The notes beneath the pieces were generated by a model. That model ran no database searches. It was not told the origin of the DNA and saw only the letters and a list, made by a program, of their open reading frames with translations. Shown one piece after another: positions 23,916 to 56,391 of a stretch of DNA of 64,000 bases (position 1 is its first letter; the number at the start of each line of letters is the position of its first letter). Origin of the DNA: a bacterium (GTDB lineage: Bacteria; Patescibacteriota; Gracilibacteria; UBA1369; PNNO01); the NCBI GenBank assembly GCA_021158225.1, contig JAGGUZ010000005.1:18882-82881 (forward strand), given 5' to 3'. Made by a program: the position numbers and the translations under genes.

Positions 23916-24000
23916 GCCGAAGTGGCGGAATTGGTAGACGCGCACGACTCAAAATCGTGTTCCGCAAGGAGTGAGGGTTCGATTCCCTCCTTCGGCACCA
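23916..24000 (+). tRNA. tRNA-Leu (anticodon CAA), CCA encoded
   Basis: Hand-folded. Acceptor GCCGAAG/CTTCGGC, anticodon arm CACGA-cuCAAaa-TCGTG, long variable arm, T-arm GAGGG-TTCGATT-CCCTC, 85 nt. Confidence 0.9.
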
Positions 24001-32661: not shown

Positions 32662-33855
32662 TTAAACATTTATTTTAAATGTTTCTTCGTCTTCCTTCTT
32701 TTTATCTTCAATAAATCTAAACAATTTTTCTTTCTTTTCTTTCGTTAGTTTTTTTTGTTCAACTTCTTTTTTCCTTCTATAATAATCAATTGTATTTTTT
32801 TCTTGTTCTCCTCTCTTTTTAGAGAAGATTGTAGTTAGAATCTTTCTGTAAGGATTGTTCGGATCAAGTTTATCCATTGCTTTTGCTTTGAAAAGTTTAA
32901 CAACATTGTTATCCGGATCTCTTTCCAGAAGTCTTTCACAAATATGCATTACGTCAACATATTTTTTTTGCTCAAACCACATACCTACAAGTTGCAAAAC
33001 CACATCGGTATCTTTTTTAGCCATACTGGAAGATTTCTTTTTCGATATATCCGTTAACAATATTAAATTCCCCGCTTTCCTGTTAAGCAAGTATTTAAGA
33101 TAAGCATAACCTAGAATTACAAGTAAAATAACCGGAAGAATTTGATTCATTTGGAGCATGTAATCAAATGTTGCGTGAAGAATAATCGCGATTAAAAGTC
33201 CTTCAAGTATTTTGTACTCTTTAAATGCTTGTGCATAAGGTATCTTAAATGTGTTCCTTATCAAATGAACCCATAAGTATACTTTCCCTTCCCAGTGCCT
33301 GTCTTTGCTTATATCGAGTGAAAACTTTGCTATACCAAAGAAATATCCGAAAATTCCGGAAAACAACATATGCGCACAAGCAGTGAAAATCGATCTGAAT
33401 AAAAATGTTACAACAACTTCTTGAATCGGAGCTACGATAATTACAGTTTTGAAATAAATTATATTTTCCGCAAAAGCAAAACCCAAAGCTGCTACCAAAC
33501 TAAATTTAATAGAATCATTTATTGTTTGAATAAGAACTGTTTTGGAATCTATATAGCGAAGCATCATTTGTTTAACAAGCTCTTCCATTATTCCAACCAT
33601 TATAAACAGCCCTGCATAATAATATGTTGGATCTGAAATATTATTTTTTATCCACAAAAATGGGTCTATTCCCGGAACAATCAACCATATATATTGAATT
33701 ATAAATACTGTTATTACAGCCAAAATGCCCCCGGAGAATATAAGCGCAAGCATTTTTTTATCACTTTTTTTACCGCTAAAAATAATATACAGCCATATAA
33801 CGGCTGGTATAACTGCAAGAACCCCGCTAATTACCCACAACATTATAATATTCAT
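32662..33855 (-). CDS. PrsW-family intramembrane metalloprotease with a C-terminal TPR-like / K-E-rich cytoplasmic extension
   Basis: Polytopic protein with PrsW hallmarks MEELVKQ (EExxK) and LHATFDY (HxxxD). The tail contains CERLLERDPDNNVVKLFKAKAMDKLDPNNPY. Confidence 0.7.
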   Translation of the reverse strand: MNIIMLWVISGVLAVIPAVIWLYIIFSGKKSDKKMLALIFSGGILAVITVFIIQYIWLIVPGIDPFLWIKNNISDPTYYYAGLFIMVGIMEELVKQMMLRYIDSKTVLIQTINDSIKFSLVAALGFAFAENIIYFKTVIIVAPIQEVVVTFLFRSIFTACAHMLFSGIFGYFFGIAKFSLDISKDRHWEGKVYLWVHLIRNTFKIPYAQAFKEYKILEGLLIAIILHATFDYMLQMNQILPVILLVILGYAYLKYLLNRKAGNLILLTDISKKKSSSMAKKDTDVVLQLVGMWFEQKKYVDVMHICERLLERDPDNNVVKLFKAKAMDKLDPNNPYRKILTTIFSKKRGEQEKNTIDYYRRKKEVEQKKLTKEKKEKLFRFIEDKKKEDEETFKINV

Positions 33856-33861
33856 ATTATT

Positions 33862-34245
33862 TTAAGAGGCTGGATGAGAAATAGCAAATTTAGCCTCATC
33901 AATTGTGGGAAATGTCTTAATCAATTGAGTAAGACCTACCACCTGAAGTATATCCAAAATATTCGGTCTTGTTTGCGCAATAACAATTTTTCCACCGTTT
34001 TCATAAACTTTTCCGTACCAATCTGTAAGATATCCAATTGATTTACTGTTCATATATTCGAGTTCCGAAAAATCAAAAATCAAATTCAGATTTCTTGGCA
34101 CTTTCTCAATAAGGTCATAAATTGCCTGAGCTTTTTCGTCAACATTACTTTCATCTAGCTGACCAGTAAACTTAACGATTTTTACAGTCATATCGGGTGA
34201 TGATGACTCAATGTCTTCTATAGTTACAGTAGCTGGTGTTGCCAT
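33862..34245 (-). CDS. STAS-domain anti-sigma-factor antagonist (SpoIIAA/RsbV-like)
   Basis: 127 aa with FDFSELEYMNSKSIGYLTD, carrying the conserved phospho-acceptor Ser context (NSxxIG). Confidence 0.8.
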   Translation of the reverse strand: MATPATVTIEDIESSSPDMTVKIVKFTGQLDESNVDEKAQAIYDLIEKVPRNLNLIFDFSELEYMNSKSIGYLTDWYGKVYENGGKIVIAQTRPNILDILQVVGLTQLIKTFPTIDEAKFAISHPAS

Positions 34246-34271
34246 GATATTTGATTTGTTATTTATATAAA

Positions 34272-34841
34272 TTAGATTACTATGTGTGTTTGATCGCCGG
34301 CAAGAGATAGCCCCTGTTTAAGCTCTTGCGTCTTAACATCGTCCAGATATTTTTTCACTCTAACCATTATTCCTCCTCCTGGTTTATCTGTAAAGGTTAA
34401 TTCGTCAGTCCACTCTTTTACGATTTTAGGCAAACCTCTTCCTCTTATTTCATGTATAACCGCACCTTCTTTAGATCTTTCATCTACTAATTTTTGAATT
34501 TCCGTAGCTTTCATTTGTTTCTCCCCTGTCCCAGAATCTTCAACAATTATTTCTATACTATCTTGCGGATGATTAATAAATGTAATTTTTATTTCTTCTC
34601 CAGGTTTTGATCCGTGTTCAATTGCATTATTACAAAGTTCATCTACAACCGATTGGAATCTGTATGCCCATTGTTCCGAAAAATTAGAACTGTTTCTTAT
34701 TAGAGAAAGTGTAAAATCACGAATACCGGACATAAAATATGCGTGAGTTGGAAGAGTGATAGTAATTTTTATCGGCTCTTTTTTGTTATCTTTTAGTGCT
34801 GTTGCGATGTCGTTCATAACATTGTTAGCATGTAAAAACAC
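34272..34841 (-). CDS. RsbW/SpoIIAB-like serine kinase (HATPase_c anti-sigma type)
   Basis: N-box ELCNNAIEHG, G1 VEDSGTG and G2 RGRGLP. The track start is GTG at 34841; an alternative ATG lies at 34817. Confidence 0.8.
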   Translation of the reverse strand: MFLHANNVMNDIATALKDNKKEPIKITITLPTHAYFMSGIRDFTLSLIRNSSNFSEQWAYRFQSVVDELCNNAIEHGSKPGEEIKITFINHPQDSIEIIVEDSGTGEKQMKATEIQKLVDERSKEGAVIHEIRGRGLPKIVKEWTDELTFTDKPGGGIMVRVKKYLDDVKTQELKQGLSLAGDQTHIVI

Positions 34842-36042: not shown

Positions 36043-36780
36043 ATGTTTCAAGATAATCAACCACAACAACCTGTAACACCTCAATCTCAGGAACCGGAAG
36101 TCACTCAAACACCAACTACTCCAGAACCACCTCAAGCTCCTGAGAAACAAGTACCTGTAACTCCACAAAAACCTGCTACGCCTGTAGTTTCTCCTGAGAA
36201 AACAACTCAAGAGGAAAGAATGTGGGCAGCTATTGGATACATTGCTTTTTTAGGCGTTGTTTCCTTGGCTATTAAGCCAAAGAGTGCTTTTTGTAAGCAC
36301 CATGCAACCCGTGGACTTGTGATCTTTGCGTTCTGGTTTGTTAGCCTAATCCTTCTTGCAATGCCATCCTTCATAGGTGTAGTTGGTGGATTATTACTAC
36401 TTGGTTTAACAGGGCTATCTATATTTGGAATTATTAAATCTATTCAAAGTTATAAATTGGATCTTCCAGTTTTATCTTCTTTAGCTGACAAGGTGCCCGT
36501 ATCTGCTATTATTGGTTCTGTTACAGGGAAAACCCCTGAAGTTACAAAACCAAGCGAAGCGAAACCAATTGAAGCAGAAACTCAACCAACTAAAACCGAG
36601 AACACACAAGAAAATGTAGAACAAGTTGTTCCAACCACTGAGCAGATATCTCAAACTCCGAAACAATCGGAAGTTGAATCAACTCCTACAGAACAACCGG
36701 AAATTGTACAACCGAAACCTGTACAATCAGATAAACCAGCTGAAAAACAAGATCCTCCTTTAACTCCACCTCAAGTTTAA
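36043..36780 (+). CDS. membrane protein with a DUF4870-like core and P/T/Q/E-rich low-complexity tails
   Basis: 245 aa. The core is EERMWAAIGYIAFLGVV...KHHATRGLVIFAFWF plus further TM helices. Both termini are proline/threonine/glutamine repeats. It sits between rpsB and tsf. Confidence 0.6.
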   Translation: MFQDNQPQQPVTPQSQEPEVTQTPTTPEPPQAPEKQVPVTPQKPATPVVSPEKTTQEERMWAAIGYIAFLGVVSLAIKPKSAFCKHHATRGLVIFAFWFVSLILLAMPSFIGVVGGLLLLGLTGLSIFGIIKSIQSYKLDLPVLSSLADKVPVSAIIGSVTGKTPEVTKPSEAKPIEAETQPTKTENTQENVEQVVPTTEQISQTPKQSEVESTPTEQPEIVQPKPVQSDKPAEKQDPPLTPPQV

Positions 36781-38617: not shown

Positions 38618-39370
38618 ATGACTTTTTTTGAACTTGTTAAATATTGTCTACGTTTAATATTTTTACCAAGGTCTCTTCGAACAATGGAATGGAAGATGCT
38701 ACGTTTGGTGAACAAAGATAGAAAGCAAAATGGGCTGAAAAAGTTGAGAATGCAAGAAGATTTAAGAGTTGTTGCGCGAAAACATAGTAAGGATATGGCG
38801 CAAAAAGATTATTTTGAGCATAAAAACTTATTGGGAGAGACACCTTTTGACAGATTGGATAAAGCTCGTATTACTGATATTGTTGCCGGCGAGAATTTAG
38901 CTAAGATAAAAGGATATCAAATTCCAGTAAGAAGAGCTGAAATAGGCTTAATGAACAGCCCTGGGCATAGAGCTAATATACTAAAATCGGATTATAATTG
39001 TGTTGGAATAGGAATTGTTAAAAGTCAGGATCAATCGTTTTATTTCACGCAAAATTTTGCCGAACGCGAACTTGTATTTACAAAAAAAATAAAAAAAGTT
39101 GTAAGACTCAAAACAGGTTTAAATATAAAAGGATATTTTTTAAAAAATCCTAAAAATATTATTTATCAGGTAAAAAATCATATTAACGACAAAGATCCTC
39201 TTTATGAAAAACTAATAAAAGTAAAAGATCGAAAATTCAATTTTGTAATCCCCTTCTCCAATACCGGAATTTATCAGACTCTAATATTTGTCGAAACGGA
39301 AAATGGAAGTGAAAAATTTAACGTGGTTAACAAATTCGAGATAAAAGTTCGAAAAGGATTCGTGTTCTAA
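38618..39370 (+). CDS. CAP/SCP (YkwD-like) domain protein with an extra C-terminal domain
   Basis: LVNKDRKQNGLKKL...VARKHSKDMAQKDYFEH...MNSPGHRANIL...VGIGI is the CAP-domain pattern. I see no obvious signal peptide. Confidence 0.7.
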   Translation: MTFFELVKYCLRLIFLPRSLRTMEWKMLRLVNKDRKQNGLKKLRMQEDLRVVARKHSKDMAQKDYFEHKNLLGETPFDRLDKARITDIVAGENLAKIKGYQIPVRRAEIGLMNSPGHRANILKSDYNCVGIGIVKSQDQSFYFTQNFAERELVFTKKIKKVVRLKTGLNIKGYFLKNPKNIIYQVKNHINDKDPLYEKLIKVKDRKFNFVIPFSNTGIYQTLIFVETENGSEKFNVVNKFEIKVRKGFVF

Positions 39371-39468
39371 ATATCTGTGTACTATACAAGATTGCTCTAC
39401 CAGAATATAGACGCTTGTCTATTTTTATTGTATAATAATAAAGACTATGATAAATATAAAAACAAAAA

Positions 39469-41880
39469 ATGCCTCAACGACAAGAGAAAAATTCATGGTT
39501 ATCTCGTACAATCCTGAATAAGCTCATGAACATCACGAGTGATGAATGGCCACGTATAGCTATTTCTTGGAGTTTACAGTTTTTGTACAGAGCCGGTTTT
39601 ATTATAGGATGGACTGTTTTGTTATCAATTTTCGCCACTCGTTTTGGTATAATGGCACTTCCATATTTCTTTATTCTATACGCATTACTCGATATTCTTG
39701 GAGCGATCGGATATTCGTTTATTTTGGAAAGATTTTCCAAGGATATGATGATTATTATAACTGCACTCGGAGGAGCGTTATTGTTTCTTTTAGTGGGATT
39801 GCTGTCTTTCTATAGTGAAACGCTTTTTATATTTATAGCTATTGCAGGTTTGTCAGTTGTATTTACACAATTGTACATACTTAATTCCGGCTTTATTGAA
39901 GATTTATTCTCTCCATTGGAAAGTGAAAGAACATTTCCTTTAATAGAATCTGCCGAGACTATAGGAGGCATTGTTGGAGGCTTATTGATAACAGGTTATG
40001 TCGGAGTTTTGTCAGCGGGATATCTCTTGAATTTTTTGGTTGTGATTTTGATTATGTTCGTTCCGATTATGATTTTTCACAGGCAATTACTTAAAAAGTT
40101 GCCGTTTATCCACTTTAAAAAAAGACATAAAAAAACAGGAATTAATTTTGCGAAGATAAAAGAAAATTTAGGGCATATCAAGCGAATACCGTTTTTAAAA
40201 TTACTTCTTGTAGTTGTTATTTGCCAATGGGTTTTTTCCAATCTTCTTGAATTTCAATTCATAGAAGCACTATTTGGTCATCTACCCGAAGGTGCACACA
40301 TGGAAAAAGAACTAACATACGGACTTGGATCGTTACAAATACTCTTCCACTCGGTTGCTTTATTAATGCAACTTTTAGTTGCAAGCAGGATTATTTCATC
40401 TTTGGGAATTGTTTCATCTTTATTGTTACATCCTCTTGTAACGCTATTAAGCCTTGGGACTATGCTAATACGATTTGGTATGCCATCCGCAATTTTAACA
40501 AAACTGAATTACGAGATGACATTTACGATTTATAAGAATGCATATCATTCCTCGTATTATGCAATAGAATCTAAAATTCGAGAACAGGTACGCGAACTTC
40601 TGGAAGGATTCGCCCATCCCCTTGGAACTCTAGTTGGAATGGGAACGTTACTACTTCTTGAGCAATTTTTTCATGGAACAACATTTAATCAAAGCGTAAC
40701 CGTATTAATGATTGCAATTATGGGGATAATGCTGTTTGTAATCGTTAAAAATGACAGGAAGTATACTCAGATCTCAATTAAAAATTTACTTTATTCAAAA
40801 GATACGGCGGTACAATTAAATGCTGTGGAGATATTAGGACAAAAAGGTCATAAAAATGCTACCGAAATACTAACAAGAATGCTTAACGAAACGGAAATTG
40901 CCGACAAAGTTAAAATTAGGATCTTAAACACTTTGGGACATATGAAAGATCCAGAATCTCTTAGCGAAATTATCGATGCTTTGGAACATAAAAATCCCGA
41001 AATAAGAAAGGCTTCTCTTATAGCTTTGGAAAAATTTAATACATTTACGAAAAAAGAAACAAAACATCCGTTTTCGACACACAGGACAAATAATATTCTT
41101 AAAAAGATGTTTCTTGAAGAAAACGATTATGCAATTAAATCGTTGGTAATGGGAGTTTTGGCAAAACATAGTAGCAATAAAATAGTTCCATATTTATTGT
41201 CTCTTCTTAAGAGTGCAAAAGGATATCAAAAAGCGGACGCTATTCGCGTATGCGGTAATTTCCATGATATTTCACTTGTTCATTATCTTATGCCATTTTT
41301 AGAATCTGATGATCCGATTATAAAATCAAGGACGATTGTAGCTCTATGGCAATTTAAAAAACATCGAATGAAACTACTTCAAGAAATTAAGAATATGTTA
41401 TTTAGTAAAAATAAAGCTGATAGACTAGCAGCCTATTATATCCTTGGAGAAATAAATGCTTTACAAGAAAAAAATCGTCTACTTGATTTGTTGAAATCCG
41501 AAGATGAAGACGAAAAACTCGCCGTAGCCATAGCACTTGTTAAAATGAATATCCGTGAAGGAGTTCCTATAATTATAGAAAGGATCGTATACGACGAATC
41601 TTCTCGTAAGAATTTATTATATCTTCTTCAACTTACTCTTGGAAAACGTATGAAAAACTATATGCTTAGAGTGCTTAATCAAACAGTTTCTCTTTATATC
41701 AATCATATATTGTCGGAAAGTAATAAAAAAGTATTAGAAGAACTTGACACAAACACATTAATGAAGCTTCGAAGTGCATATGAACTTGTAAATGAACACG
41801 AAGAAGTGGAAAATGTAGATAAAGTATTAAGAGCTTCTACCAAACAATACAATCAGGAATTACAACTTAATCCAATTTAA
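39469..41880 (+). CDS. fusion of a ~12-TM transporter-like domain (ATP/ADP-translocase/MFS-like) with a C-terminal HEAT-repeat domain
   Basis: 803 aa. Residues ~30-430 hold ~11-12 hydrophobic helices. Residues ~440-800 hold repeated HEAT/PBS-lyase-like units (AVQLNAVEILGQKGHKNATEILTRML, VKIRILNTLGHMKDPESLSEIIDALEHKNPEIRKASLIALEKF, IKSRTIVALWQF...). The transporter subfamily is tentative. Confidence 0.6.
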   Translation: MPQRQEKNSWLSRTILNKLMNITSDEWPRIAISWSLQFLYRAGFIIGWTVLLSIFATRFGIMALPYFFILYALLDILGAIGYSFILERFSKDMMIIITALGGALLFLLVGLLSFYSETLFIFIAIAGLSVVFTQLYILNSGFIEDLFSPLESERTFPLIESAETIGGIVGGLLITGYVGVLSAGYLLNFLVVILIMFVPIMIFHRQLLKKLPFIHFKKRHKKTGINFAKIKENLGHIKRIPFLKLLLVVVICQWVFSNLLEFQFIEALFGHLPEGAHMEKELTYGLGSLQILFHSVALLMQLLVASRIISSLGIVSSLLLHPLVTLLSLGTMLIRFGMPSAILTKLNYEMTFTIYKNAYHSSYYAIESKIREQVRELLEGFAHPLGTLVGMGTLLLLEQFFHGTTFNQSVTVLMIAIMGIMLFVIVKNDRKYTQISIKNLLYSKDTAVQLNAVEILGQKGHKNATEILTRMLNETEIADKVKIRILNTLGHMKDPESLSEIIDALEHKNPEIRKASLIALEKFNTFTKKETKHPFSTHRTNNILKKMFLEENDYAIKSLVMGVLAKHSSNKIVPYLLSLLKSAKGYQKADAIRVCGNFHDISLVHYLMPFLESDDPIIKSRTIVALWQFKKHRMKLLQEIKNMLFSKNKADRLAAYYILGEINALQEKNRLLDLLKSEDEDEKLAVAIALVKMNIREGVPIIIERIVYDESSRKNLLYLLQLTLGKRMKNYMLRVLNQTVSLYINHILSESNKKVLEELDTNTLMKLRSAYELVNEHEEVENVDKVLRASTKQYNQELQLNPI

Positions 41881-41881
41881 T

Positions 41882-42241
41882 ATGGCAACAATAGAAGTAA
41901 TAAAAAATGCACCCGATACAAAAAAGAATTCTCAAACGGTTTTTCTTAAAGGAGAAATTGATAGAGATACAATAGCTAAATTAAGAGAGGCTATGGAGAC
42001 GATTTTGCCGACACTAGAAACGAAAACGTTAATTATAGATCTTGAGAATCTCAAATTCATCAATAGCGAAGGAATTGGATATTTAACCGATATTCATAAC
42101 AGATTAAATACTCTCGGAAAAAATGTTGTTATTCTAAAAGCGTCAGCTCGCATAATGGATATTTTTCAGCTTGTCGGACTTAATCAGATTGTTTCATGCT
42201 ATGCAACTGAAGAAGAAATGAATTCGGACATAAAATCTTAA
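41882..42241 (+). CDS. STAS-domain anti-sigma-factor antagonist (second RsbV-like paralogue)
   Basis: 119 aa with IDLENLKFINSEGIGYLTD, carrying the conserved Ser context. It starts 1 nt after the stop of the transporter-HEAT gene. Confidence 0.8.
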   Translation: MATIEVIKNAPDTKKNSQTVFLKGEIDRDTIAKLREAMETILPTLETKTLIIDLENLKFINSEGIGYLTDIHNRLNTLGKNVVILKASARIMDIFQLVGLNQIVSCYATEEEMNSDIKS

Positions 42242-42263
42242 TCAACTAAACTAAAACAAACAT

Positions 42264-43394
42264 ATGATTACATGGATTAGAAAAAGCGTAACGAGGAGAA
42301 TAGGATTATTACTTGTTTTGATAAGTGCCGGATTCGGATATATGACTTATTATTTTTGGAACAGTCCCCTTTCATCCCCAATTTACTATTCGTTTGCCAT
42401 AATCGGCGGATTTGTTCTTGTTGTATTTATTATTGTTTACAGCTTGATAAACAAACCTCTGAAAAAATTAACTAAACAAATGAAACTGCTTTTAACGGGC
42501 AGATCTTATAAAAGAATTACAACAAACAGAATTGATGAAATAGGAATAATCGCACAATTCTTTAATGAAATAACCGAAAATCTGGAGAATATCTCGAAAA
42601 AATTAAAAGAAGAGCAAAGGATGTCATCGGAACTTGAAATAGCAAGCTCTATTCAAAAGGCAATATTGCCAAATAAAAGTCCGGATATACCAAATTTAGA
42701 GGTTGTCGCCAAATCACGTTCGGCGGTTGAAGTTGGCGGAGACAGTTTTGATTTTATCCAGAGAAAAGATGCCACATATTTTTATATCGGTGATGTTACC
42801 GGGCATGGAAGTCCCGCAGCTCTTGTTATGATGATGGTCAACACTCTTCTGCATACATATTCGGAAATGTATTCAAGTGTTTACGATATAGTTGTGAATA
42901 CAAACAGAATTTTAAAACCCCGTATTAAGGCTGCTATGTTTATGACTATGGTTATACTTAAATGGGATCATCTAAATAAAAAAATGACATATGTCGGAGC
43001 AGGCCATGAATATATTTTAATTTACAGAAATAAAACCGGAGAAATTGAGGCAAAACCGGCAGGTGGAGTTGCTCTTGGAATGGTTCCGGATAACAGTAAA
43101 CTTGTAAAAGAACAAGAAATTAAGCTCGAAGATGGAGATATGATTATTTTATATACAGACGGAATTACCGAAGCAAGAAACGATAAAGGCGAAATGTACG
43201 GAATTGATAGATTTAAAGAAGCCATTAAAAACTACGCAACTCAATATGGTCCCGAGGGAGTTACCCATCATGTAGCACTTGATTTCTCTCAATATGTTGG
43301 AAACGCCGAACAAGAAGACGATATAACCCTTATGGTACTAAAATATACCGAGAAAAAAGAAGTTCAAACGGATAAAAGTACTAACTGGAAATAA
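42264..43394 (+). CDS. membrane-bound HAMP + PP2C (SpoIIE/RsbU-type) serine phosphatase
   Basis: Two TM helices and a HAMP-like linker (RIDEIGIIAQFFNEITENL). SpoIIE-domain motifs are ELEIASSIQKAILP, GGDSFDF, GDVTGHG, LYTDGITEA and DDITL. Confidence 0.85.
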   Translation: MITWIRKSVTRRIGLLLVLISAGFGYMTYYFWNSPLSSPIYYSFAIIGGFVLVVFIIVYSLINKPLKKLTKQMKLLLTGRSYKRITTNRIDEIGIIAQFFNEITENLENISKKLKEEQRMSSELEIASSIQKAILPNKSPDIPNLEVVAKSRSAVEVGGDSFDFIQRKDATYFYIGDVTGHGSPAALVMMMVNTLLHTYSEMYSSVYDIVVNTNRILKPRIKAAMFMTMVILKWDHLNKKMTYVGAGHEYILIYRNKTGEIEAKPAGGVALGMVPDNSKLVKEQEIKLEDGDMIILYTDGITEARNDKGEMYGIDRFKEAIKNYATQYGPEGVTHHVALDFSQYVGNAEQEDDITLMVLKYTEKKEVQTDKSTNWK

Positions 43395-43399
43395 TTTCG

Positions 43400-44422
43400 A
43401 TGAAAACAAAAGACTTCTATTTTGATTTGCCTAAAGATTTAATTGCACAAAATCCGGTATCTCCCAGAGATAGCTCTAAATTGATGGTTCTAAACAGGTC
43501 TAACAAAAGTATAGAGCATCATTTTTTTTATGAACTTCCAAAACTTCTTCCACGTAATTCGATTTTAGTACTAAACGATACAAAAGTTTATGCGGGAAGG
43601 CTTTACGTTACAATTGACAATAAAAAGGGTGAGCTCCTTGTTTTAAAAAAAAGATCAAATGATGTCTGGAAGTGTATGGTTAAGCCTGGTAAAAGATTCT
43701 CGGTCGGGAAAGATTTTATTATTGAAGGAAAAGAAGAAGAGTTAAATGCAAGTGTTCAAAATATAAACGAAGATGGTACGCGTGAAATTAAGTTTAATTT
43801 GAATACGGAATTACTTGATTGGATTGAAAATAACGGCTATCCCCCATTTCCACCCTATATTAAACATACACAAGCTTCATTCCAAGATTATCAAACAACA
43901 TACGCAAAAGATATTGGAAGTATTGCCGCGCCCACGGCCGGGCTTCATTTTACAGATAGAGTTTTCAATGAGCTTAAAAAGAAAAACATAGAAATTCTAA
44001 CCTTAACGCTTCATGTTGGGCGCGGAACTTTTCTTCCAGTAAAAGTTGATAACATAGAAGATCACAAAATGCATAGTGAATGGTATATGCTAAGCAAAGA
44101 AAATGCGGAGAAATTAAATATGGCAAAACGCCAAAACAAAGAAATAATTGCAGTTGGCACAACATCGGTTAGAACACTTGAGTCCAATTTTAAAAACGGA
44201 CTGTTCCATCCTGAAACAACCAATACAAACATATTCATATATCCAGGATATAATTATAAAGCAATTGATGGAATAATTACTAATTTTCATCTGCCGGAAA
44301 GCACGCTTATTATGCTTATAAGTGCGTTTGCTGAAAAAAAATTCATATTTAAAGCTTACGACGAAGCAATTAAAAACAAATACAGGTTTTATAGTTTTGG
44401 AGATTCAATGATGATTCTTTAA
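43400..44422 (+). CDS. queA: S-adenosylmethionine:tRNA ribosyltransferase-isomerase
   Basis: FYFDLPKDLIAQNPVSPRDSSKLMV, APTAGLHFT and AVGTTSVRTLES motifs. Confidence 0.95.
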   Translation: MKTKDFYFDLPKDLIAQNPVSPRDSSKLMVLNRSNKSIEHHFFYELPKLLPRNSILVLNDTKVYAGRLYVTIDNKKGELLVLKKRSNDVWKCMVKPGKRFSVGKDFIIEGKEEELNASVQNINEDGTREIKFNLNTELLDWIENNGYPPFPPYIKHTQASFQDYQTTYAKDIGSIAAPTAGLHFTDRVFNELKKKNIEILTLTLHVGRGTFLPVKVDNIEDHKMHSEWYMLSKENAEKLNMAKRQNKEIIAVGTTSVRTLESNFKNGLFHPETTNTNIFIYPGYNYKAIDGIITNFHLPESTLIMLISAFAEKKFIFKAYDEAIKNKYRFYSFGDSMMIL

Positions 44423-46830
44423 AGCCAATCGGGAACATATTTAGCCTCTTTAATTCCTGGTATTGAAAGTATTAAATCTATATCATCGCTGTTAAACTTA
44501 CCTCGATATAAATCCTTTATTTCCCCTCCCCCAGCAACAAAATGTTTAATTTGATTGTAACCTTTGTAGTAAAGCAAATCTTTTGTAAATCCACCTGCCT
44601 CGGATGTATCTTCAAGACCTCTTTTTACTTTAATTGTGTTTCTCCATGCTCTTTCCGGTGGAATTTTATAATCCAACATCTTTTCAAATACTTCCACAAA
44701 TGAATATTTCAATGCCAAATGAACTGCAAGTACTAAGGAGATTGATAAATAAAGATTTTTTTCTTCATCTCCTTTTTGAGTAATTATATTGTACATCGCA
44801 AGCCCCTCTTGCGTTTCCAAATAATTCGGTAATCCTCGATTAAATATTTCATACTCCTGAGATTTTCCATTTTCTGCTGTTAGAATATGAGTTTCAATTT
44901 CATGTATTATAAGGTTATCAATTCTTTTTTCAGTAAACAAAGCTCCTTTTCTTAAAAAAAGCCTGTTGTTTTTTCCGGCAATCGCATCGGAAACCATTTC
45001 TTCCTTAATTTTTACCTTCCATTTTAACAAACCGTATTTTTCGAATACTTTATCCATAATAACTTTCGCTTCTTCTGCAGTAATATTTCCTTTTTTACTA
45101 GAATAAGTAACAGAAGTTTCTTTTAACCAATTTTTTGAATTTTCAACAAGTTCTTCACTCGGCTTCCCATAAAGATCTATGGATGCATTAGTAAATTCTT
45201 CAGCGAAACCTCTAAATTCAAGCAACGCAATTTTTTTGGCAATTTCAAGTTTTTTCTTTTCAAAAAGCTTACCGAGATTTGTTGTGTCGGTTTGAATTTG
45301 ATTAAGATCTTTCCTTAAATCATAAAGATTGAATTTAAGTTCAGGATAAACAAATTGAGGATTTTTCTTAAAATTTTGAAAGAACTTTATACGTTCTTCT
45401 CCAAGATTAACAGGTCTTAAGTGATAAAGAAGCTTTAATTTTTCATCTATTTTGATAAGTTGCTGATCAATTTCGTTGTAATTTATCTTTCTCTTTTCAT
45501 CCAAAGTTTTTTTAAGTAACTTTTTATCTTGCTTTTCTTCTTTAGTTACATTTACATCCGGAAGCAGTTTCTTCTGAATTTTCTTAGACGGATCAATAAA
45601 AAAATTCTTTAAATCTCTACATCCAACTATAAGACTATAATTGTTCTTTGTTATTTTCTCTATATCTGCAACCGTTTGAATTCTTTTCCCGGCAATCGAT
45701 AATTTTAATTTTACGGTAGATTTTTCATCGTCATATTCATATTCATCTTTAAGCAAACTGGCCTCAATAGCGAATTGTTCATCAATAATTGTTCTTTGAT
45801 TACCCGGGTCAATCTCTGCCAAAACTCTTCTTGTCCCATCTTTAAGGTAAATATCAACCATTTCCTCGATTCCAACAACATTTTTACCGGAAACTTGATG
45901 AATATTCTTTTCTACAATATTCCCGAACATATCTTTTGCGATTCTAACCCCTTTTACCGGATTATTGACCTTCACTCCTTCAATCCTCTGAAGACGTTTT
46001 TTTAATGGAGCCAAATTGGCTATTTGCACTCCTAATCCAGCCCTGGCGTTAATCTCTAAAAGCACCGGACCAGAAGACTTATCTATAGATATATCCGTTG
46101 CCATATAACCAAGATTCGTAATAAGCTGACATTTAGATGCAATCATTAAAATATCATCCCAATAAGGGATTTTAAGTCCTTTAATCGGTCCGACCTCCGG
46201 GATTTCATCAATAATTTTATTTTTATACGAGATATAAGTTGTTTCCCCTTTTGCTATATCAATTCCAACACCAACAGCACCAAGATGTAAATTAGCCTTA
46301 CCTGCGGATTCTTTCGTAGGGAGCCTAAGCATTGCCATTACAGGGATAAGATTATGCACGACCACTCTAATATCCGGCAAACCTCTGTAAGAATAATTTC
46401 CGAGTGTATCATGAGAAATAATAAGCTGTTCAAAAAACGCACTGTCTCCAACATTTGAAATTGAATATCTTCCATCAAGAATATCCGATATATGATCTAT
46501 AATAATTTTTTTATCTAATTTCTTGCCGGAAGCGGTTATCCATACATCTTCACGCTTATTTGTTATAGGTATGATCCCCTCTCCTCCAAACCCATGATTT
46601 GGCTTTAATATAAAAGAATTTGGAAGCGACCCGGAATCGAATTTATCCAATTCTTCTTTTGATCTAATAGCAGTATATAATTTGGGGACAGGAATCCCTC
46701 TCGCAGAAAGGAATTTTTTTGTTTTAAGCTTATCATCCGCAAGCTTAATAGTCTTCTTTTTGTTATAGGGACGAATATATTGTAAATTTCGCGCATTTAG
46801 CCCTAAAATTCCTTTATCGTTGAAAATCAT
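44419..46830 (-). CDS. three-domain fusion: RimK-related ATP-grasp ligase + retropepsin-like (RimB/Zn_protease-like) domain + DUF1704 QEGLA-motif (MATCAP-like) metallopeptidase
   Basis: Residues 1-285: GILGLNARNLQYIRPYN, DDKLKTKKFL, FILKPNHGFGGEGI, LLEINARAGLG. Residues ~315-415: VVGIEEMVDIYL...LAEIDPGNQRTIID...LIVGCRDLKNFFIDPS. Residues ~560-803: HEIETH (643-648) and ETQEGLA (672-678). Confidence 0.8.
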   Translation of the reverse strand: MIFNDKGILGLNARNLQYIRPYNKKKTIKLADDKLKTKKFLSARGIPVPKLYTAIRSKEELDKFDSGSLPNSFILKPNHGFGGEGIIPITNKREDVWITASGKKLDKKIIIDHISDILDGRYSISNVGDSAFFEQLIISHDTLGNYSYRGLPDIRVVVHNLIPVMAMLRLPTKESAGKANLHLGAVGVGIDIAKGETTYISYKNKIIDEIPEVGPIKGLKIPYWDDILMIASKCQLITNLGYMATDISIDKSSGPVLLEINARAGLGVQIANLAPLKKRLQRIEGVKVNNPVKGVRIAKDMFGNIVEKNIHQVSGKNVVGIEEMVDIYLKDGTRRVLAEIDPGNQRTIIDEQFAIEASLLKDEYEYDDEKSTVKLKLSIAGKRIQTVADIEKITKNNYSLIVGCRDLKNFFIDPSKKIQKKLLPDVNVTKEEKQDKKLLKKTLDEKRKINYNEIDQQLIKIDEKLKLLYHLRPVNLGEERIKFFQNFKKNPQFVYPELKFNLYDLRKDLNQIQTDTTNLGKLFEKKKLEIAKKIALLEFRGFAEEFTNASIDLYGKPSEELVENSKNWLKETSVTYSSKKGNITAEEAKVIMDKVFEKYGLLKWKVKIKEEMVSDAIAGKNNRLFLRKGALFTEKRIDNLIIHEIETHILTAENGKSQEYEIFNRGLPNYLETQEGLAMYNIITQKGDEEKNLYLSISLVLAVHLALKYSFVEVFEKMLDYKIPPERAWRNTIKVKRGLEDTSEAGGFTKDLLYYKGYNQIKHFVAGGGEIKDLYRGKFNSDDIDLILSIPGIKEAKYVPDWL

Positions 46831-54283: not shown

Positions 54284-54358
54284 CGCGGGGTAGAGCAGTG
54301 GCAGCTCGTCGGGCTCATAACCCGGAGGTCGCAGGTTCGAATCCTGCCCCCGCAACCA
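54284..54358 (+). tRNA. initiator tRNA-fMet (anticodon CAT), CCA encoded
   Basis: Hand-folded. C1-A72 mismatch (CGCGGGG / CCCCGCA) and three G-C pairs closing the anticodon stem (GGG-cuCAUaa-CCC). T-arm GCAGG-TTCGAAT-CCTGC. Confidence 0.9.
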
Positions 54359-56314: not shown

Positions 56315-56391
56315 GGCAGGGTAGCTCAGTCGGTTAGAGCGCGGGACTCATAAGCCCGAGGTCGTGGGTTCGATCCCCACCCCTGCCACCA
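56315..56391 (+). tRNA. tRNA with CAT anticodon (elongator Met; tRNA-Ile2/lysidine type not excluded), CCA encoded
   Basis: Hand-folded, 77 nt. Acceptor GGCAGGG/CCCTGCC, D-arm GCTC-AGTCGGTTA-GAGC, anticodon loop cuCAUaa, T-arm GTGGG-TTCGATC-CCCAC. Confidence 0.9.

What the first reader, a model, noticed from the sequence alone, without database searches (positions are those of the whole stretch)
39469..43394. Transporter-HEAT fusion translationally coupled to a second STAS protein and a TM-HAMP-PP2C phosphatase: candidate transporter-directed partner switching
The 803-aa protein joins a ~12-TM domain, whose N-terminus resembles ATP/ADP-translocase/MFS carriers, to ~370 aa of HEAT repeats. Its stop is 1 nt from the STAS start. 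The RsbU-like phosphatase follows after 22 nt. Together with the kinase and STAS at 33862-34841, the window holds exactly the RsbU/RsbV1/RsbV2/RsbW complement known from Chlamydia. Chlamydia is another reduced, host-dependent bacterium that lacks sigma B and imports nucleotides. Both STAS proteins keep the phospho-acceptor Ser (MNSKSIG, INSEGIG). The HEAT domain is a plausible docking target, so the switch could gate nutrient or nucleotide uptake.
Basis: partly seen in the sequence, partly recalled or inferred. Interest (0 to 1): 0.65.

Follow-up and report, generated by a model that had tools for sequence, protein, structure and literature searches.

The report
Transporter-HEAT gene beside a phosphatase switch
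A candidate-phylum (Peregrinibacteria) bacterium encodes a membrane transporter-like protein with a long HEAT-repeat tail directly ahead of a small STAS switch protein and a membrane phosphatase, an arrangement kept in most relatives; it hints, without proving, that this uncharacterised transporter family is wired to a phosphorylation switch.

Summary
All five ORFs, their domains and the 1-nt and 22-nt gaps are real.

- **Fusion protein.** The 803-aa protein has 12 TM helices and about 355 aa of HEAT solenoid. Pfam's TLC model does not hit it. Profile-profile comparison places its TM domain in the published but functionally uncharacterised NTT-HEAT family of Major et al. 2017 (99.6 %, E 9e-24). 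Canonical ATP/ADP translocases are more distant.
- **Linkage.** Across 71 informative species-level genomes, the phosphatase directly follows the fusion gene in 60. The STAS gene sits between them in only 25 of these. The kinase-STAS1 pair lies upstream in 36 of 40.
- **Caveats.** The whole region from rpsB to queA is collinear across the lineage. Three family members outside this block have no STAS or PP2C neighbour, and neither does a Myxococcales NTT-HEAT. So linkage cannot be separated from inherited synteny.
- **Phosphatase.** It has no extracytoplasmic sensor, only a 0-12-aa loop.
- **Sigma factor.** None is in the window.

I favour a transporter-coupled partner switch with the transporter as co-sensor (0.4). 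STAS-HEAT gating of transport (0.2) and unrelated neighbours (0.35) remain open. I rate it a new variant of a known kind, of moderate interest.

The parts
39408..39436 (+). Promoter-like site (TAGACG-17-TATAAT) in the 98-nt gap upstream of the fusion gene
   Evidence: Consensus scan. The scan found fewer sites than shuffled sequence gives, so this is weak evidence. No Rfam RNA or riboswitch lies in the leader.
39469..40794 (+). TM domain of the fusion protein (aa 1-442): 12 helices, MFS/NTT fold, divergent member of the NTT-HEAT clade
   Evidence: AF2 model. Foldseek top TM matches are AtNTT1 9j3j/l/m and CpNTT1 9j3n/o. hhalign: 99.6 %, E 9e-24 to NTT-HEAT NTT domains; 93 %, E 3e-7 to canonical NTT1/2. 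MFS_1 is sub-threshold in 18 of 23 members and there is no PF03219 hit.
40804..41880 (+). Cytoplasmic HEAT-repeat solenoid of the fusion protein (aa 446-803, about 10 helical hairpins)
   Evidence: HEAT_2 5.5e-23. alphaRep/HEAT matches in PDB sequence and fold searches. Helix pattern. Cytoplasmic location is inferred from the even number of TM helices in an MFS fold.
41882..42241 (+). STAS2: single-domain SpoIIAA/RsbV-like protein with acceptor Ser62, starting 1 nt after the fusion stop
   Evidence: 'NS(E/Q)(G/S/A)IG' is kept in 25 of 25 PP2C-linked orthologs, and the PP2C-less L040 copy keeps the Ser as NSKVIG. The gene is present in 26 of 71 informative genomes.
42264..43394 (+). Membrane-anchored phosphatase: TM1, about 10-aa outer loop, TM2, HAMP, then PP2C/SpoIIE. 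No extracytoplasmic sensor domain.
   Evidence: SpoIIE 1.6e-46 and HAMP. Best NCBIfam hit is SiaA. The ortholog alignment shows a 0-12-aa loop and catalytic motifs kept in 57-58 of 58. It directly follows the fusion or STAS gene in 60 of 71 genomes, with median gaps of -4 and +2 nt.
34272..34841 (-). RsbW/SpoIIAB-type serine kinase (HATPase_c_2), 4.6 kb upstream on the opposite strand
   Evidence: N box (ELCNNAIEHG), G1 (EDSGTG) and G2 (GRGLPKI) were read directly from the sequence. Found within 10 kb upstream of the fusion gene in 36 of 40 genomes.
33862..34245 (-). STAS1: SpoIIAA/RsbV-like partner of the kinase, 26 nt downstream of it
   Evidence: 'NSK(S/A)IG' is kept in 41 of 41 orthologs.
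32662..33855 (-). PrsW-family intramembrane protease with a C-terminal soluble extension, 6 nt after STAS1. A possible alternative output of the kinase/STAS1 pair.
   Evidence: PrsW-protease 2.9e-24. Detected in 13 genomes of the STAS2-bearing clade and in two without STAS2 (L066, L067). In ten genomes of the other clade a glycosyltransferase or another gene follows STAS1.
43400..44422 (+). queA, co-oriented and 5 nt after the phosphatase. Probably the same transcription unit, with no obvious functional relation. It serves as a control for background synteny.
   Evidence: Queuosine_synth 1.4e-121. Follows the PP2C in 33 of 51 genomes.

Best explanation
The locus is a lineage-specific operon of Peregrinibacteria. 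A divergent NTT-HEAT membrane protein is co-transcribed with a SpoIIAA-like STAS protein and a sensor-less, membrane-anchored HAMP-PP2C phosphatase. The NTT-HEAT protein has a 12-TM NTT/MFS-fold carrier domain and a cytoplasmic HEAT solenoid. An RsbW-like serine kinase and a second STAS protein 4.6 kb upstream complete a partner-switching set.

Proposed mechanism:
1. The phosphatase cannot sense anything outside the cell by itself. Its HAMP domain is driven by contact with the neighbouring carrier, through TM-TM contact and/or HEAT-PP2C contact.
2. The carrier's transport or occupancy state therefore sets phosphatase activity. This would resemble known transporter co-sensors such as UhpC-UhpB, DctA-DcuS and BceAB-BceS (from general knowledge).
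3. The phosphatase dephosphorylates STAS-P (STAS1 everywhere, STAS2 where present).
4. Unphosphorylated STAS captures the kinase and frees the kinase's other partner.
5. That partner is unknown. Candidates are the primary sigma factor, as reported for Chlamydia, the HEAT domain itself, or PrsW.

Shown: domain identities, catalytic and acceptor residues, family placement, tight gene spacing, and conservation of adjacency.

Inferred: co-transcription, any physical contact, the direction of signalling, the substrate and the output.
For: - **Adjacency.** Fusion-then-PP2C on the same strand in 60 of 71 species-level genomes, down to 24 % fusion identity.
- **Spacing.** The median gap between the fusion stop and the PP2C start is -4 nt where STAS2 is absent. 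The STAS2-PP2C gap has a median of +2 nt.
- **Relative persistence.** This adjacency persists more than its neighbours do: PP2C-queA 33 of 51, CAP-fusion 7 of 68, and ribBA at a variable 0-5 kb.
- **Core pair.** 35 genomes keep fusion-PP2C without STAS2.
- **Phosphatase.** It has two TM helices joined by only 0-12 residues, then HAMP, in all orthologs examined. Its catalytic motifs are intact in 57-58 of 58.
- **Compartment.** The HEAT solenoid is a protein-binding scaffold in the same compartment as the PP2C, STAS and kinase.
- **Precedent.** In other phyla NTT-HEAT genes are followed by, or fused to, a cyclic-nucleotide-binding domain. A cytoplasmic signalling module therefore also sits at the C-terminal side of this family elsewhere (PMC5381601).
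- **Complete switch set.** It has conserved acceptor Ser residues and kinase boxes.
Against: - The whole region rpsB-tsf-(ribBA)-(CAP)-fusion-STAS-PP2C-queA-ATPgrasp is collinear across the lineage. The unrelated queA is retained next to the PP2C in 65 % of genomes, so background synteny is high.
- The NJ tree implies few independent events: one main STAS2 loss and about three PP2C losses.
- The fusion gene persists where the adjacent PP2C is gone, in 11 genomes.
- Family members in other genomic contexts have no STAS or PP2C nearby: P0245, P0257, P0259 and a Myxococcales NTT-HEAT.
- No Rosetta-stone fusion of NTT-HEAT with STAS or PP2C appeared among the 120 listed relatives with Pfam annotation. 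The 150 listed family representatives, all at most 855 aa, leave no room for an extra domain.
- A mirror-tree test gave no specific co-evolution signal.
- No physical interaction was tested.
Confidence: 0.4

Rival explanations
1. Unrelated neighbours. The STAS/PP2C/kinase genes form an ordinary partner-switching system whose output is transcription (for example the primary sigma factor, as reported for Chlamydia RsbW) or the PrsW protease. The NTT-HEAT protein is an independent carrier that happens to lie in a strongly collinear, compact chromosomal block.
For: - Collinearity covers housekeeping genes (rpsB, tsf, ribBA, queA) down to 24 % fusion identity.
- queA-PP2C adjacency is 65 % against 85 % for fusion-PP2C.
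- There are few independent evolutionary events.
- Homologs outside the block lack STAS/PP2C neighbours.
- The fusion gene is retained after loss of the adjacent PP2C, while kinase-STAS1 stay upstream in L049, L060, L063 and L077.
- The mirror-tree test was uninformative.
- Chlamydial RsbW is reported to control sigma-66, which is not encoded next to it (PMC4552016, PMC11619594).
Against: - Fusion-PP2C is the most persistent immediate adjacency in the region, with overlapping or near-overlapping stop and start codons.
- The phosphatase has no sensor domain of its own, so some membrane partner is needed.
- No sigma-70-family ORF is present in the 64-kb window. In the 10-kb flanks of the 78 loci, only five carry such an ORF, none next to the kinase.
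Confidence: 0.35
2. The switch acts on the carrier. Unphosphorylated STAS2 (or STAS1), or the kinase, docks on the HEAT solenoid and gates nucleotide or nutrient uptake. The phosphatase and kinase set the STAS phosphorylation state.
For: - STAS2 starts 1 nt after the fusion stop.
- Its acceptor Ser is invariant.
- In L040 a STAS gene stays next to the fusion gene although the PP2C and the upstream kinase are absent.
- STAS occupies the position that a cNMP-binding regulatory domain occupies in other NTT-HEAT loci (PMC5381601).
- STAS domains regulate SLC26/SulP carriers (PMC8256260). MlaB does so for the Mla ABC transporter (general knowledge).
Against: - STAS2 is absent from 35 of the 60 genomes that keep fusion-PP2C.
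- STAS2 scores as an ordinary anti-sigma-factor antagonist, not as MlaB (36.7 bits against a cut-off of 90).
- No docking evidence exists.
- The substrate is unknown. Two of the four charged residues I recall as essential in AtNTT1 have no counterpart in the hhalign alignment.
- Peribacteria make their own nucleotides (PMC4736985).
Confidence: 0.2
3. The fusion protein no longer transports anything. It is a membrane scaffold or receptor that merely anchors the partner-switching proteins at the membrane through its HEAT domain.
For: - No TLC HMM hit.
- Canonical NTT charged residues are only partly conserved in the alignment.
- No member of the NTT-HEAT family has a demonstrated substrate (PMC5381601).
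Against: - The TM domain is the best-conserved part of the protein, with many invariant polar and charged residues inside helices: E144, E151, E163, E261, Q263, R307, R371. That fits an active carrier.
- The full 12-TM MFS fold is predicted with high confidence.
Confidence: 0.05

Closest known systems
NTT-HEAT fusion proteins (Major, Embley & Williams 2017, PMC5381601): NTT (PF03219-type) carrier domain fused at its C-terminus to HEAT repeats. Widespread in Cyanobacteria, Proteobacteria, Bacteroidetes and Chlamydiaceae. Function unknown.
   Same: - Same two-domain order and size.
- The TM profile aligns over 406 columns with NTT domains of Nostoc, Pseudanabaena, Beggiatoa and C. trachomatis NTT-HEAT proteins (99.6 %, E 9e-24).
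- Shared motifs: F-x-x-x-E-x-(K/E)-R-x-(F/Y)-P, (E/D)-F-Q-Y and S-S-R-(I/L)-I.
- HEAT_2, HEAT and HEAT_PBS hits.
- A regulatory gene lies immediately downstream.
   Different: - No PF03219 HMM hit.
- The lineage (Peregrinibacteria/CPR) is not in the published survey.
- The downstream partner is STAS plus HAMP-PP2C rather than a cyclic-nucleotide-binding domain.
- Placement inside the published monophyletic clade was not tested by phylogeny.
Canonical nucleotide transporters NTT/Tlc/Npt1 (AtNTT1, C. pneumoniae NTT1; PDB 9j3j-9j3o)
   Same: 12-TM MFS-type fold. These structures are among the best fold matches (E about 2e-6, TM-score 0.59-0.68 on the target). hhalign gives 93 % over 398 columns.
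   Different: - Only 13-16 % identity.
- HMM scores are 5-20 bits, against 44-55 bits for NTT-HEAT domains.
- Other MFS carriers match the fold nearly as well.
- Canonical NTTs have no HEAT tail.
- ATP/ADP exchange is not implied.
Partner-switching systems RsbU/RsbV/RsbW and SpoIIE/SpoIIAA/SpoIIAB
   Same: - PP2C phosphatase.
- STAS substrate with Ser at the SpoIIAA Ser58 position.
- GHKL serine kinase with N, G1 and G2 boxes.
   Different: - No sigma factor gene in the cluster or window.
- Kinase-STAS1 and STAS2-PP2C are split into two divergent units 4.6 kb apart.
- The phosphatase is anchored by two TM helices and a HAMP domain, without a sensor domain.
Chlamydia Rsb network (RsbU, RsbV1, RsbV2, RsbW; PMC4552016, PMC11619594)
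   Same: One phosphatase, two STAS proteins and one kinase. No sigma-B. The organism has a reduced genome and also carries an NTT-HEAT gene (PMC5381601).
   Different: - Chlamydial RsbU has a large periplasmic sensor domain (general knowledge), whereas the loop here is about 10 aa.
- The chlamydial target is reported to be sigma-66.
- The genes are dispersed in Chlamydia.
- Two STAS genes are seen in only part of the Peregrinibacteria.
- No link between chlamydial NTT-HEAT and Rsb genes was found (upstream side only).
SiaA-type HAMP-PP2C phosphatases (SiaABCD of Pseudomonas) and transporter co-sensor pairs (UhpC-UhpB, DctA-DcuS, BceAB-BceS)
   Same: SiaA is the best NCBIfam hit for the phosphatase (E 1.2e-21, well below the equivalog cut-off). 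The proposed logic matches these pairs: a signalling enzyme with a minimal outer loop takes its input from a neighbouring transporter.
   Different: The phosphatase is not a SiaA equivalog. The co-sensor analogy comes from general knowledge only, and no interaction has been shown here.

Membership tests
NTT-HEAT fusion family (Major et al. 2017) | N-terminal 12-TM domain homologous to the NTT/TLC carrier domain | tested here: met
   hhalign of TM profile A2 against four or five published NTT-HEAT NTT domains: 99.6 %, E 9e-24, 406 columns. Single-sequence comparisons give 97 %, E 1e-10. The AF2 model has 12 TM helices.
NTT-HEAT fusion family (Major et al. 2017) | Detected by Pfam PF03219 (TLC), the criterion used in the paper | tested here: not met
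   No PF03219 hit at E <= 1 for 23 members, nor for 10 distant members. Only sub-threshold MFS_1.
NTT-HEAT fusion family (Major et al. 2017) | C-terminal HEAT repeats (PF13646/PF02985) on the same polypeptide | tested here: met
   HEAT_2 5.5e-23, plus HEAT and HEAT_PBS, in 23 of 23 members.
NTT-HEAT fusion family (Major et al. 2017) | Branches inside the monophyletic NTT-HEAT clade in an NTT-domain phylogeny | not tested
   Only score ranking is available. NTT-HEAT domains score 44-55 bits against the A2 HMM, a single-domain Methylobacterium NTT 50 bits, and canonical NTTs 5-20 bits.
NTT-HEAT fusion family (Major et al. 2017) | Frequent downstream or fused cyclic-nucleotide-binding domain (optional feature) | tested here: not met
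   No PF00027 in the Pfam annotation of the 120 listed relatives. The 150 listed representatives are at most 855 aa, which leaves no room for an added domain. Downstream genes are STAS and PP2C.
Canonical ATP/ADP translocase (NTT/Tlc; PF03219, TIGR00769) | Family HMM hit above threshold | tested here: not met
   No hit in Pfam or NCBIfam.
Canonical ATP/ADP translocase (NTT/Tlc; PF03219, TIGR00769) | Conserved charged residues needed for nucleotide exchange (AtNTT1 K155, E245, E385, K527; recalled from memory) | tested here: inconclusive
   In the hhalign alignment with CtNTT1:
- 'NLVEVTWK' aligns with 'NLLEFQF' (invariant E261).
- 'KGKAAID' aligns with 'REQVRELLEG' (invariant R371).
- 'RDTKD' and 'SELWGS' have no charged counterpart.
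The alignment is at 13-16 % identity, so the mapping is uncertain.
Canonical ATP/ADP translocase (NTT/Tlc; PF03219, TIGR00769) | Nucleotide transport activity | not testable with these tools
   Needs uptake assays.
MFS superfamily fold | Two six-helix bundles with MFS topology | tested here: met
   AF2 helices 24-207 and 241-442. Foldseek matches NTT1, SV2A, SLC15A4, PiPT, MelB, NorA and VMAT2 with TM-score 0.55-0.74 on the target.
Partner-switching system (RsbU/V/W type) | PPM/PP2C phosphatase with intact metal-binding Asp motifs | tested here: met
   SpoIIE 1.6e-46. The invariant residues of GDSFD, DVTGHG, TDG and DD motifs are kept in 57-58 of 58 orthologs.
Partner-switching system (RsbU/V/W type) | Single-domain STAS with phosphorylatable Ser at the SpoIIAA Ser58 position | tested here: met
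   Alignment to SpoIIAA structures 1th8, 1tid and 1auz. Ser is kept in 25 of 25 PP2C-linked STAS2 orthologs and 41 of 41 STAS1 orthologs.
Partner-switching system (RsbU/V/W type) | GHKL serine kinase / anti-sigma factor of the RsbW/SpoIIAB type | tested here: met
   HATPase_c_2 2.4e-10. The best NCBIfam hits are RsbW and SpoIIAB, below the equivalog cut-offs. N, G1 and G2 boxes were read from the sequence. There is no PDB sequence hit.
Partner-switching system (RsbU/V/W type) | Cognate sigma factor (or other defined target) encoded with the kinase | tested here: not met
In the flanks of the 78 loci only five carry a sigma-like ORF, none next to the kinase.
Partner-switching system (RsbU/V/W type) | Kinase phosphorylates STAS and PP2C dephosphorylates it | not testable with these tools
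   Needs biochemistry.
Chlamydia-type Rsb network | RsbU with a periplasmic ligand-binding sensor domain | tested here: not met
   The loop between TM1 and TM2 is 0-12 aa in all orthologs.
Chlamydia-type Rsb network | Two RsbV paralogs with one RsbW and one RsbU | tested here: inconclusive
   True for this window and for 25 of 71 related genomes. Another 35 have only STAS1 in the region. Whole-genome counts were not available.
Transporter-associated STAS (MlaB; SLC26/SulP C-terminal STAS) | Family HMM above threshold, or STAS fused to the carrier | tested here: not met
   mlaB_1 scores 36.7 bits against a cut-off of 90. No relative carries a fused STAS.

The most novel reading that the evidence does not exclude
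The NTT-HEAT protein is a genuine component of the partner switch, either as its membrane input (the carrier state controls the sensor-less HAMP-PP2C) or as its direct non-sigma output (STAS or kinase docking on the HEAT solenoid). That would be the first partner-switching system wired to a nucleotide-transporter-family protein. It would also give the first functional handle on the uncharacterised NTT-HEAT family, which includes the orphan NTT-HEAT of Chlamydia trachomatis.
Probability: 0.55. Interest if true: 0.7.

Novelty: new variant of a known kind. Interest (0 to 1): 0.45.

Why it matters
NTT-HEAT proteins are widespread in cyanobacteria, proteobacteria, Chlamydiaceae and oomycetes. They were flagged in 2017 as interesting but have no known substrate, partner or role (PMC5381601). 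I found no later characterisation in the searchable literature.

A lineage in which this protein is persistently encoded with a STAS protein and a phosphatase that lacks its own sensor offers a concrete, testable hypothesis: the HEAT tail is an interface to a phosphorylation switch.

The finding also bears on two other questions:
- How CPR bacteria with few regulators couple uptake to regulation.
- What partner-switching systems control in genomes that have no alternative sigma factor next to the kinase.

If the link is only synteny, what remains is routine: a new, divergent subfamily of a known architecture beside a standard Rsb-like module.

Tried and rejected
1. **Pfam/NCBIfam classification as TLC.** No hit. 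Family placement had to come from profile-profile comparison with sequences in the supplement of PMC5381601.

2. **Finding chlamydial, cyanobacterial and other NTT-HEAT loci with a profile (A3).** The word-indexed search returned only 11 proteins, mostly fragments. The C. psittaci contig ends inside the gene, so only the upstream side could be read, and it holds no Rsb genes.

3. **Mirror-tree / partial Mantel co-evolution test.** It compared the fusion protein against PP2C, kinase and STAS1, with queA and ribBA as controls. Fusion-PP2C partial r was 0.27-0.63, no higher than fusion-queA (0.62) or fusion-ribBA (0.73). The bona fide pair kinase-STAS1 gave about 0. The test has no discriminating power here and was discarded.

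4. **Riboswitch or leader RNA that might reveal the substrate.** None found.

5. **Rosetta-stone fusions of NTT-HEAT with STAS, PP2C or cNBD.** None among the 120 listed relatives with Pfam annotation. The lengths of the 150 listed representatives leave no room for an extra domain.

6. **Complex prediction (HEAT with STAS or kinase).** Not attempted. The structure tool takes one chain and returns no inter-chain confidence or coordinates, so a linker-fused model could not be evaluated.

7. **PDB sequence search for the kinase.** No hit.

8. **The cryo-EM paper on AtNTT1/CpNTT1.** Not in the searchable library. Substrate-site residues were therefore taken from memory and are marked as such.

Full report
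**1. What is in the sequence**

The region reads, left to right:
- GT4 glycosyltransferase (-)
- PrsW-family protease 32662-33855 (-)
- STAS1 33862-34245 (-)
- RsbW-like kinase 34272-34841 (-)
- chorismate mutase (-)
- rpsB (+), then a 245-aa P/T/Q-rich membrane protein (+), then tsf (+)
- ribBA (+) and a CAP-domain protein (+)
- the 803-aa fusion gene 39469-41880 (+)
- STAS2 41882-42241 (+)
- TM-HAMP-PP2C 42264-43394 (+)
- queA 43400-44422 (+)
- an ATP-grasp/MATCAP fusion (-)

The junctions are TAA-t-ATG (a 1-nt gap) and a 22-nt gap, read. G+C is about 33 % throughout. Close homologs are annotated Candidatus Peregrinibacteria, Peribacteria or Patescibacteria, so the window comes from a CPR bacterium of that group.

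**2. The fusion protein**

Pfam gives strong HEAT hits and only a sub-threshold MFS_1 hit. There is no TLC/PF03219 hit in the window protein, in 23 aligned relatives, or in 10 distant relatives.

An AlphaFold2 model built on a 23-sequence alignment is confident (pLDDT 82, pTM 0.72). It shows:
- 6+6 TM helices, with a disordered loop at 209-226.
- A solenoid of about ten helical hairpins at 446-800.

In the Foldseek search of the PDB, the best TM-domain matches are the recently solved Arabidopsis NTT1 and Chlamydia pneumoniae NTT1. Other MFS carriers score almost as well. The fold is therefore MFS, and fold alone does not decide the subfamily.

Major et al. 2017 (PMC5381601) described a monophyletic, widespread, functionally uncharacterised 'NTT-HEAT' fusion family, often followed by or fused to a cyclic-nucleotide-binding domain. 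I took NTT domains from that paper's supplementary FASTA and compared them with a profile of the Peregrinibacteria TM domain (A2):

| Comparison set | hhalign probability | E-value | Columns |
|---|---|---|---|
| NTT-HEAT set (Nostoc x2, Beggiatoa, Pseudanabaena, C. trachomatis) | 99.6 % | 9e-24 | 406 |
| Two single-domain non-canonical NTTs | 97.6 % | 4.1e-12 | 361 |
| Canonical NTT1/NTT2 | 93 % | 3e-7 | 398 |

HMM scores from the same call rank the NTT-HEAT domains at 44-55 bits and canonical NTTs at 5-20 bits.

A full-length Myxococcales NTT-HEAT (P0269) matches the TM domain at 97 %. Its HEAT part is not aligned.

The window protein is therefore a divergent member, or close sister, of a known architecture, not a new kind of fusion. 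The family is large. A profile search of 1.84 billion representatives gave 296 hits at E < 1e-30 and 2292 at E < 1e-10.

The substrate is unknown. In the alignment with CtNTT1, only two of the four charged residues I recall as essential in AtNTT1 have counterparts (low-identity alignment, residues taken from memory). Peribacteria are reported to encode essentially complete nucleotide synthesis (PMC4736985). A freshwater CPR survey noted 'ATP/ADP translocase' annotations in Gracilibacteria (PMC9166423).

**3. The switch proteins**

- **STAS proteins.** Both pass the NCBIfam anti-sigma-factor-antagonist superfamily cut-off. STAS2 aligns with SpoIIAA so that Ser62 matches the phosphorylated Ser. 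The Ser is kept in 25 of 25 PP2C-linked STAS2 orthologs and 41 of 41 STAS1 orthologs.
- **Kinase.** It has the N, G1 and G2 boxes (read). RsbW and SpoIIAB are its best NCBIfam hits, below the equivalog cut-offs.
- **Phosphatase.** It has intact PP2C motifs in 57-58 of 58 orthologs. Its two TM helices are joined by only 0-12 residues before the HAMP domain. It has no extracytoplasmic sensor domain, unlike chlamydial RsbU.
- **Sigma factor.** No sigma-70-family ORF is found in the window.
- **Other copies.** The window contains no further STAS, kinase or PP2C gene.

**4. Conservation of the arrangement**

A scan of one genome per GTDB species returned 78 loci encoding relatives, at 24-77 % identity. 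I searched stop-to-stop ORFs of those loci with the window proteins and classified them.

Of 71 loci with enough downstream sequence:
- 60 have the PP2C directly after the fusion gene. Of these, 25 have a STAS gene in between and 35 do not.
- 1 has STAS only.
- 10 have neither.

Further counts:
- Kinase-STAS1 lies within 10 kb upstream in 36 of 40.
- In the loci without STAS2, the PP2C start overlaps or abuts the fusion stop (median gap -4 nt). The STAS2-PP2C gap has a median of +2 nt.
- Other adjacencies are less persistent. PP2C-queA is 33 of 51 and CAP-fusion is 7 of 68. ribBA lies at 0-5 kb with varying inserts.

A neighbour-joining tree of the fusion protein puts the STAS-containing state in the outgroup (L075/L076) and in one major clade, which includes the window. 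The STAS-less state fills the other major clade. Three small clades have lost the adjacent PP2C. In one of them queA was lost with it, so the fusion gene now abuts the ATP-grasp gene.

**5. Why this is not proof of a functional link**

- **Collinearity.** The outgroup loci share the whole order rpsB-tsf-fusion-STAS-PP2C-queA-ATPgrasp. The block as a whole is inherited, and queA, an unrelated tRNA-modification gene, travels with it.
- **Few events.** The number of independent evolutionary events is small.
- **Other contexts.** Three family members that lie in other genomic contexts (P0245, P0257, P0259) have no STAS or PP2C nearby. Neither does a Myxococcales NTT-HEAT, which sits beside a canonical TLC gene and a Ser/Thr kinase.
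- **No fusions.** No NTT-HEAT relative carries a fused STAS, PP2C or cNMP domain. The 120 listed relatives show none in their Pfam annotation, and the 150 listed representatives are too short for an extra domain.
- **Mirror-tree test.** It was uninformative.

But the linkage is lineage-specific and confounded with synteny.

**6. Mechanism**

The persistent pair is carrier plus phosphatase, not carrier plus STAS2. Three facts make direct cooperation between the two membrane proteins the most economical reading:
- The phosphatase is membrane-anchored with a HAMP domain but no sensor.
- The carrier has a large cytoplasmic protein-binding solenoid with no known partner.
- In other phyla the same gene position or polypeptide end carries a cNMP-binding regulatory domain (PMC5381601).

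I favour the carrier acting as input (co-sensor) for the phosphatase, by analogy with transporter-dependent sensor kinases (general knowledge). The phosphatase would then set the phosphorylation state of STAS1 and STAS2. Through them it would control the RsbW-like kinase and its unknown second partner.

It remains possible and is favoured by two observations. One is the 1-nt STAS2 junction. The other is the single genome that keeps fusion-STAS without the PP2C (L040). It is weakened by the absence of STAS2 from most genomes.

The null model is unrelated neighbours with a sigma or PrsW output. It is nearly as likely as my favoured model. My estimates are 0.40 (co-sensor), 0.20 (gating), 0.35 (unrelated) and 0.05 (non-transporting scaffold).

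**7. Comparison with known systems and novelty**

- The fusion architecture is known (NTT-HEAT).
- The switch proteins are ordinary members of the RsbU/V/W kind.
- The Chlamydia parallel is partial. The counts match in this window. But chlamydial RsbU has a sensor domain, the reported target is sigma-66 (PMC4552016, PMC11619594), and I found no Rsb-NTT-HEAT linkage in Chlamydia (incomplete).
- I found no paper linking NTT-HEAT proteins or Peregrinibacteria with partner switching.

What is new is the conserved pairing of an NTT-HEAT gene with STAS/HAMP-PP2C genes in one CPR lineage. I class this as a new variant of a known kind. Interest is moderate at 0.45. It offers a testable handle on an orphan family, but no evidence of interaction exists yet.

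Noticed in passing
window 32662-33855 (-): A PrsW-family intramembrane protease with a roughly 200-aa C-terminal soluble extension lies 6 nt downstream of STAS1, in the kinase-STAS1 unit. It was detected in 13 genomes of the clade that also has STAS2 and in two without STAS2 (L066, L067). In ten sampled genomes of the other clade, a GT4 glycosyltransferase or another gene follows STAS1 instead. It could be an output of the kinase/STAS1 pair.
   Followed up: partly
window 44419-46830 (-): An 803-aa fusion of a sugar-transfer-associated ATP-grasp domain (4.8e-67) with a MATCAP-like tyrosine-carboxypeptidase domain (4.5e-57), convergent to queA. It is conserved at this position even in the distant locus L075 (10681-13032).
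   Followed up: partly
window 36043-36780 (+): A 245-aa protein with Pro/Thr/Gln-rich low-complexity ends and a hydrophobic core is inserted between rpsB and tsf. It has no Pfam hit. L075 and L084 have rpsB directly followed by tsf.
   Followed up: no
window 38618-39370 (+): A CAP/SCP (cysteine-rich secretory protein family) domain protein with a possible Ig-like C-terminal part lies immediately upstream of the fusion gene. It is adjacent in only 7 of 68 related loci.
   Followed up: partly
L047:9027-9878: A sigma-70-like ORF (E 1e-72 to the E. coli RpoD C-terminal region) lies directly upstream of the fusion-gene homolog, in a genome that lacks the downstream PP2C and the upstream kinase.
   Followed up: no
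L080:6519-10256 (Myxococcales MAG): A bona fide NTT-HEAT gene (P0269) is divergently paired with a canonical TLC-family carrier gene and preceded by a eukaryote-type Ser/Thr protein kinase gene. This is a different kind of possible phospho-regulation next to an NTT-HEAT gene.
   Followed up: no
L040:12462-12827: A STAS gene is retained right after the fusion gene although the PP2C is absent downstream and no kinase lies within 10 kb upstream. This is the only fusion-STAS-only case.
   Followed up: partly
window 23916-23997, 54284-54355, 56315-56388 (+): Three tRNA genes are the only Rfam matches in the window at gathering threshold. No riboswitch or other structured RNA was detected.
   Followed up: no
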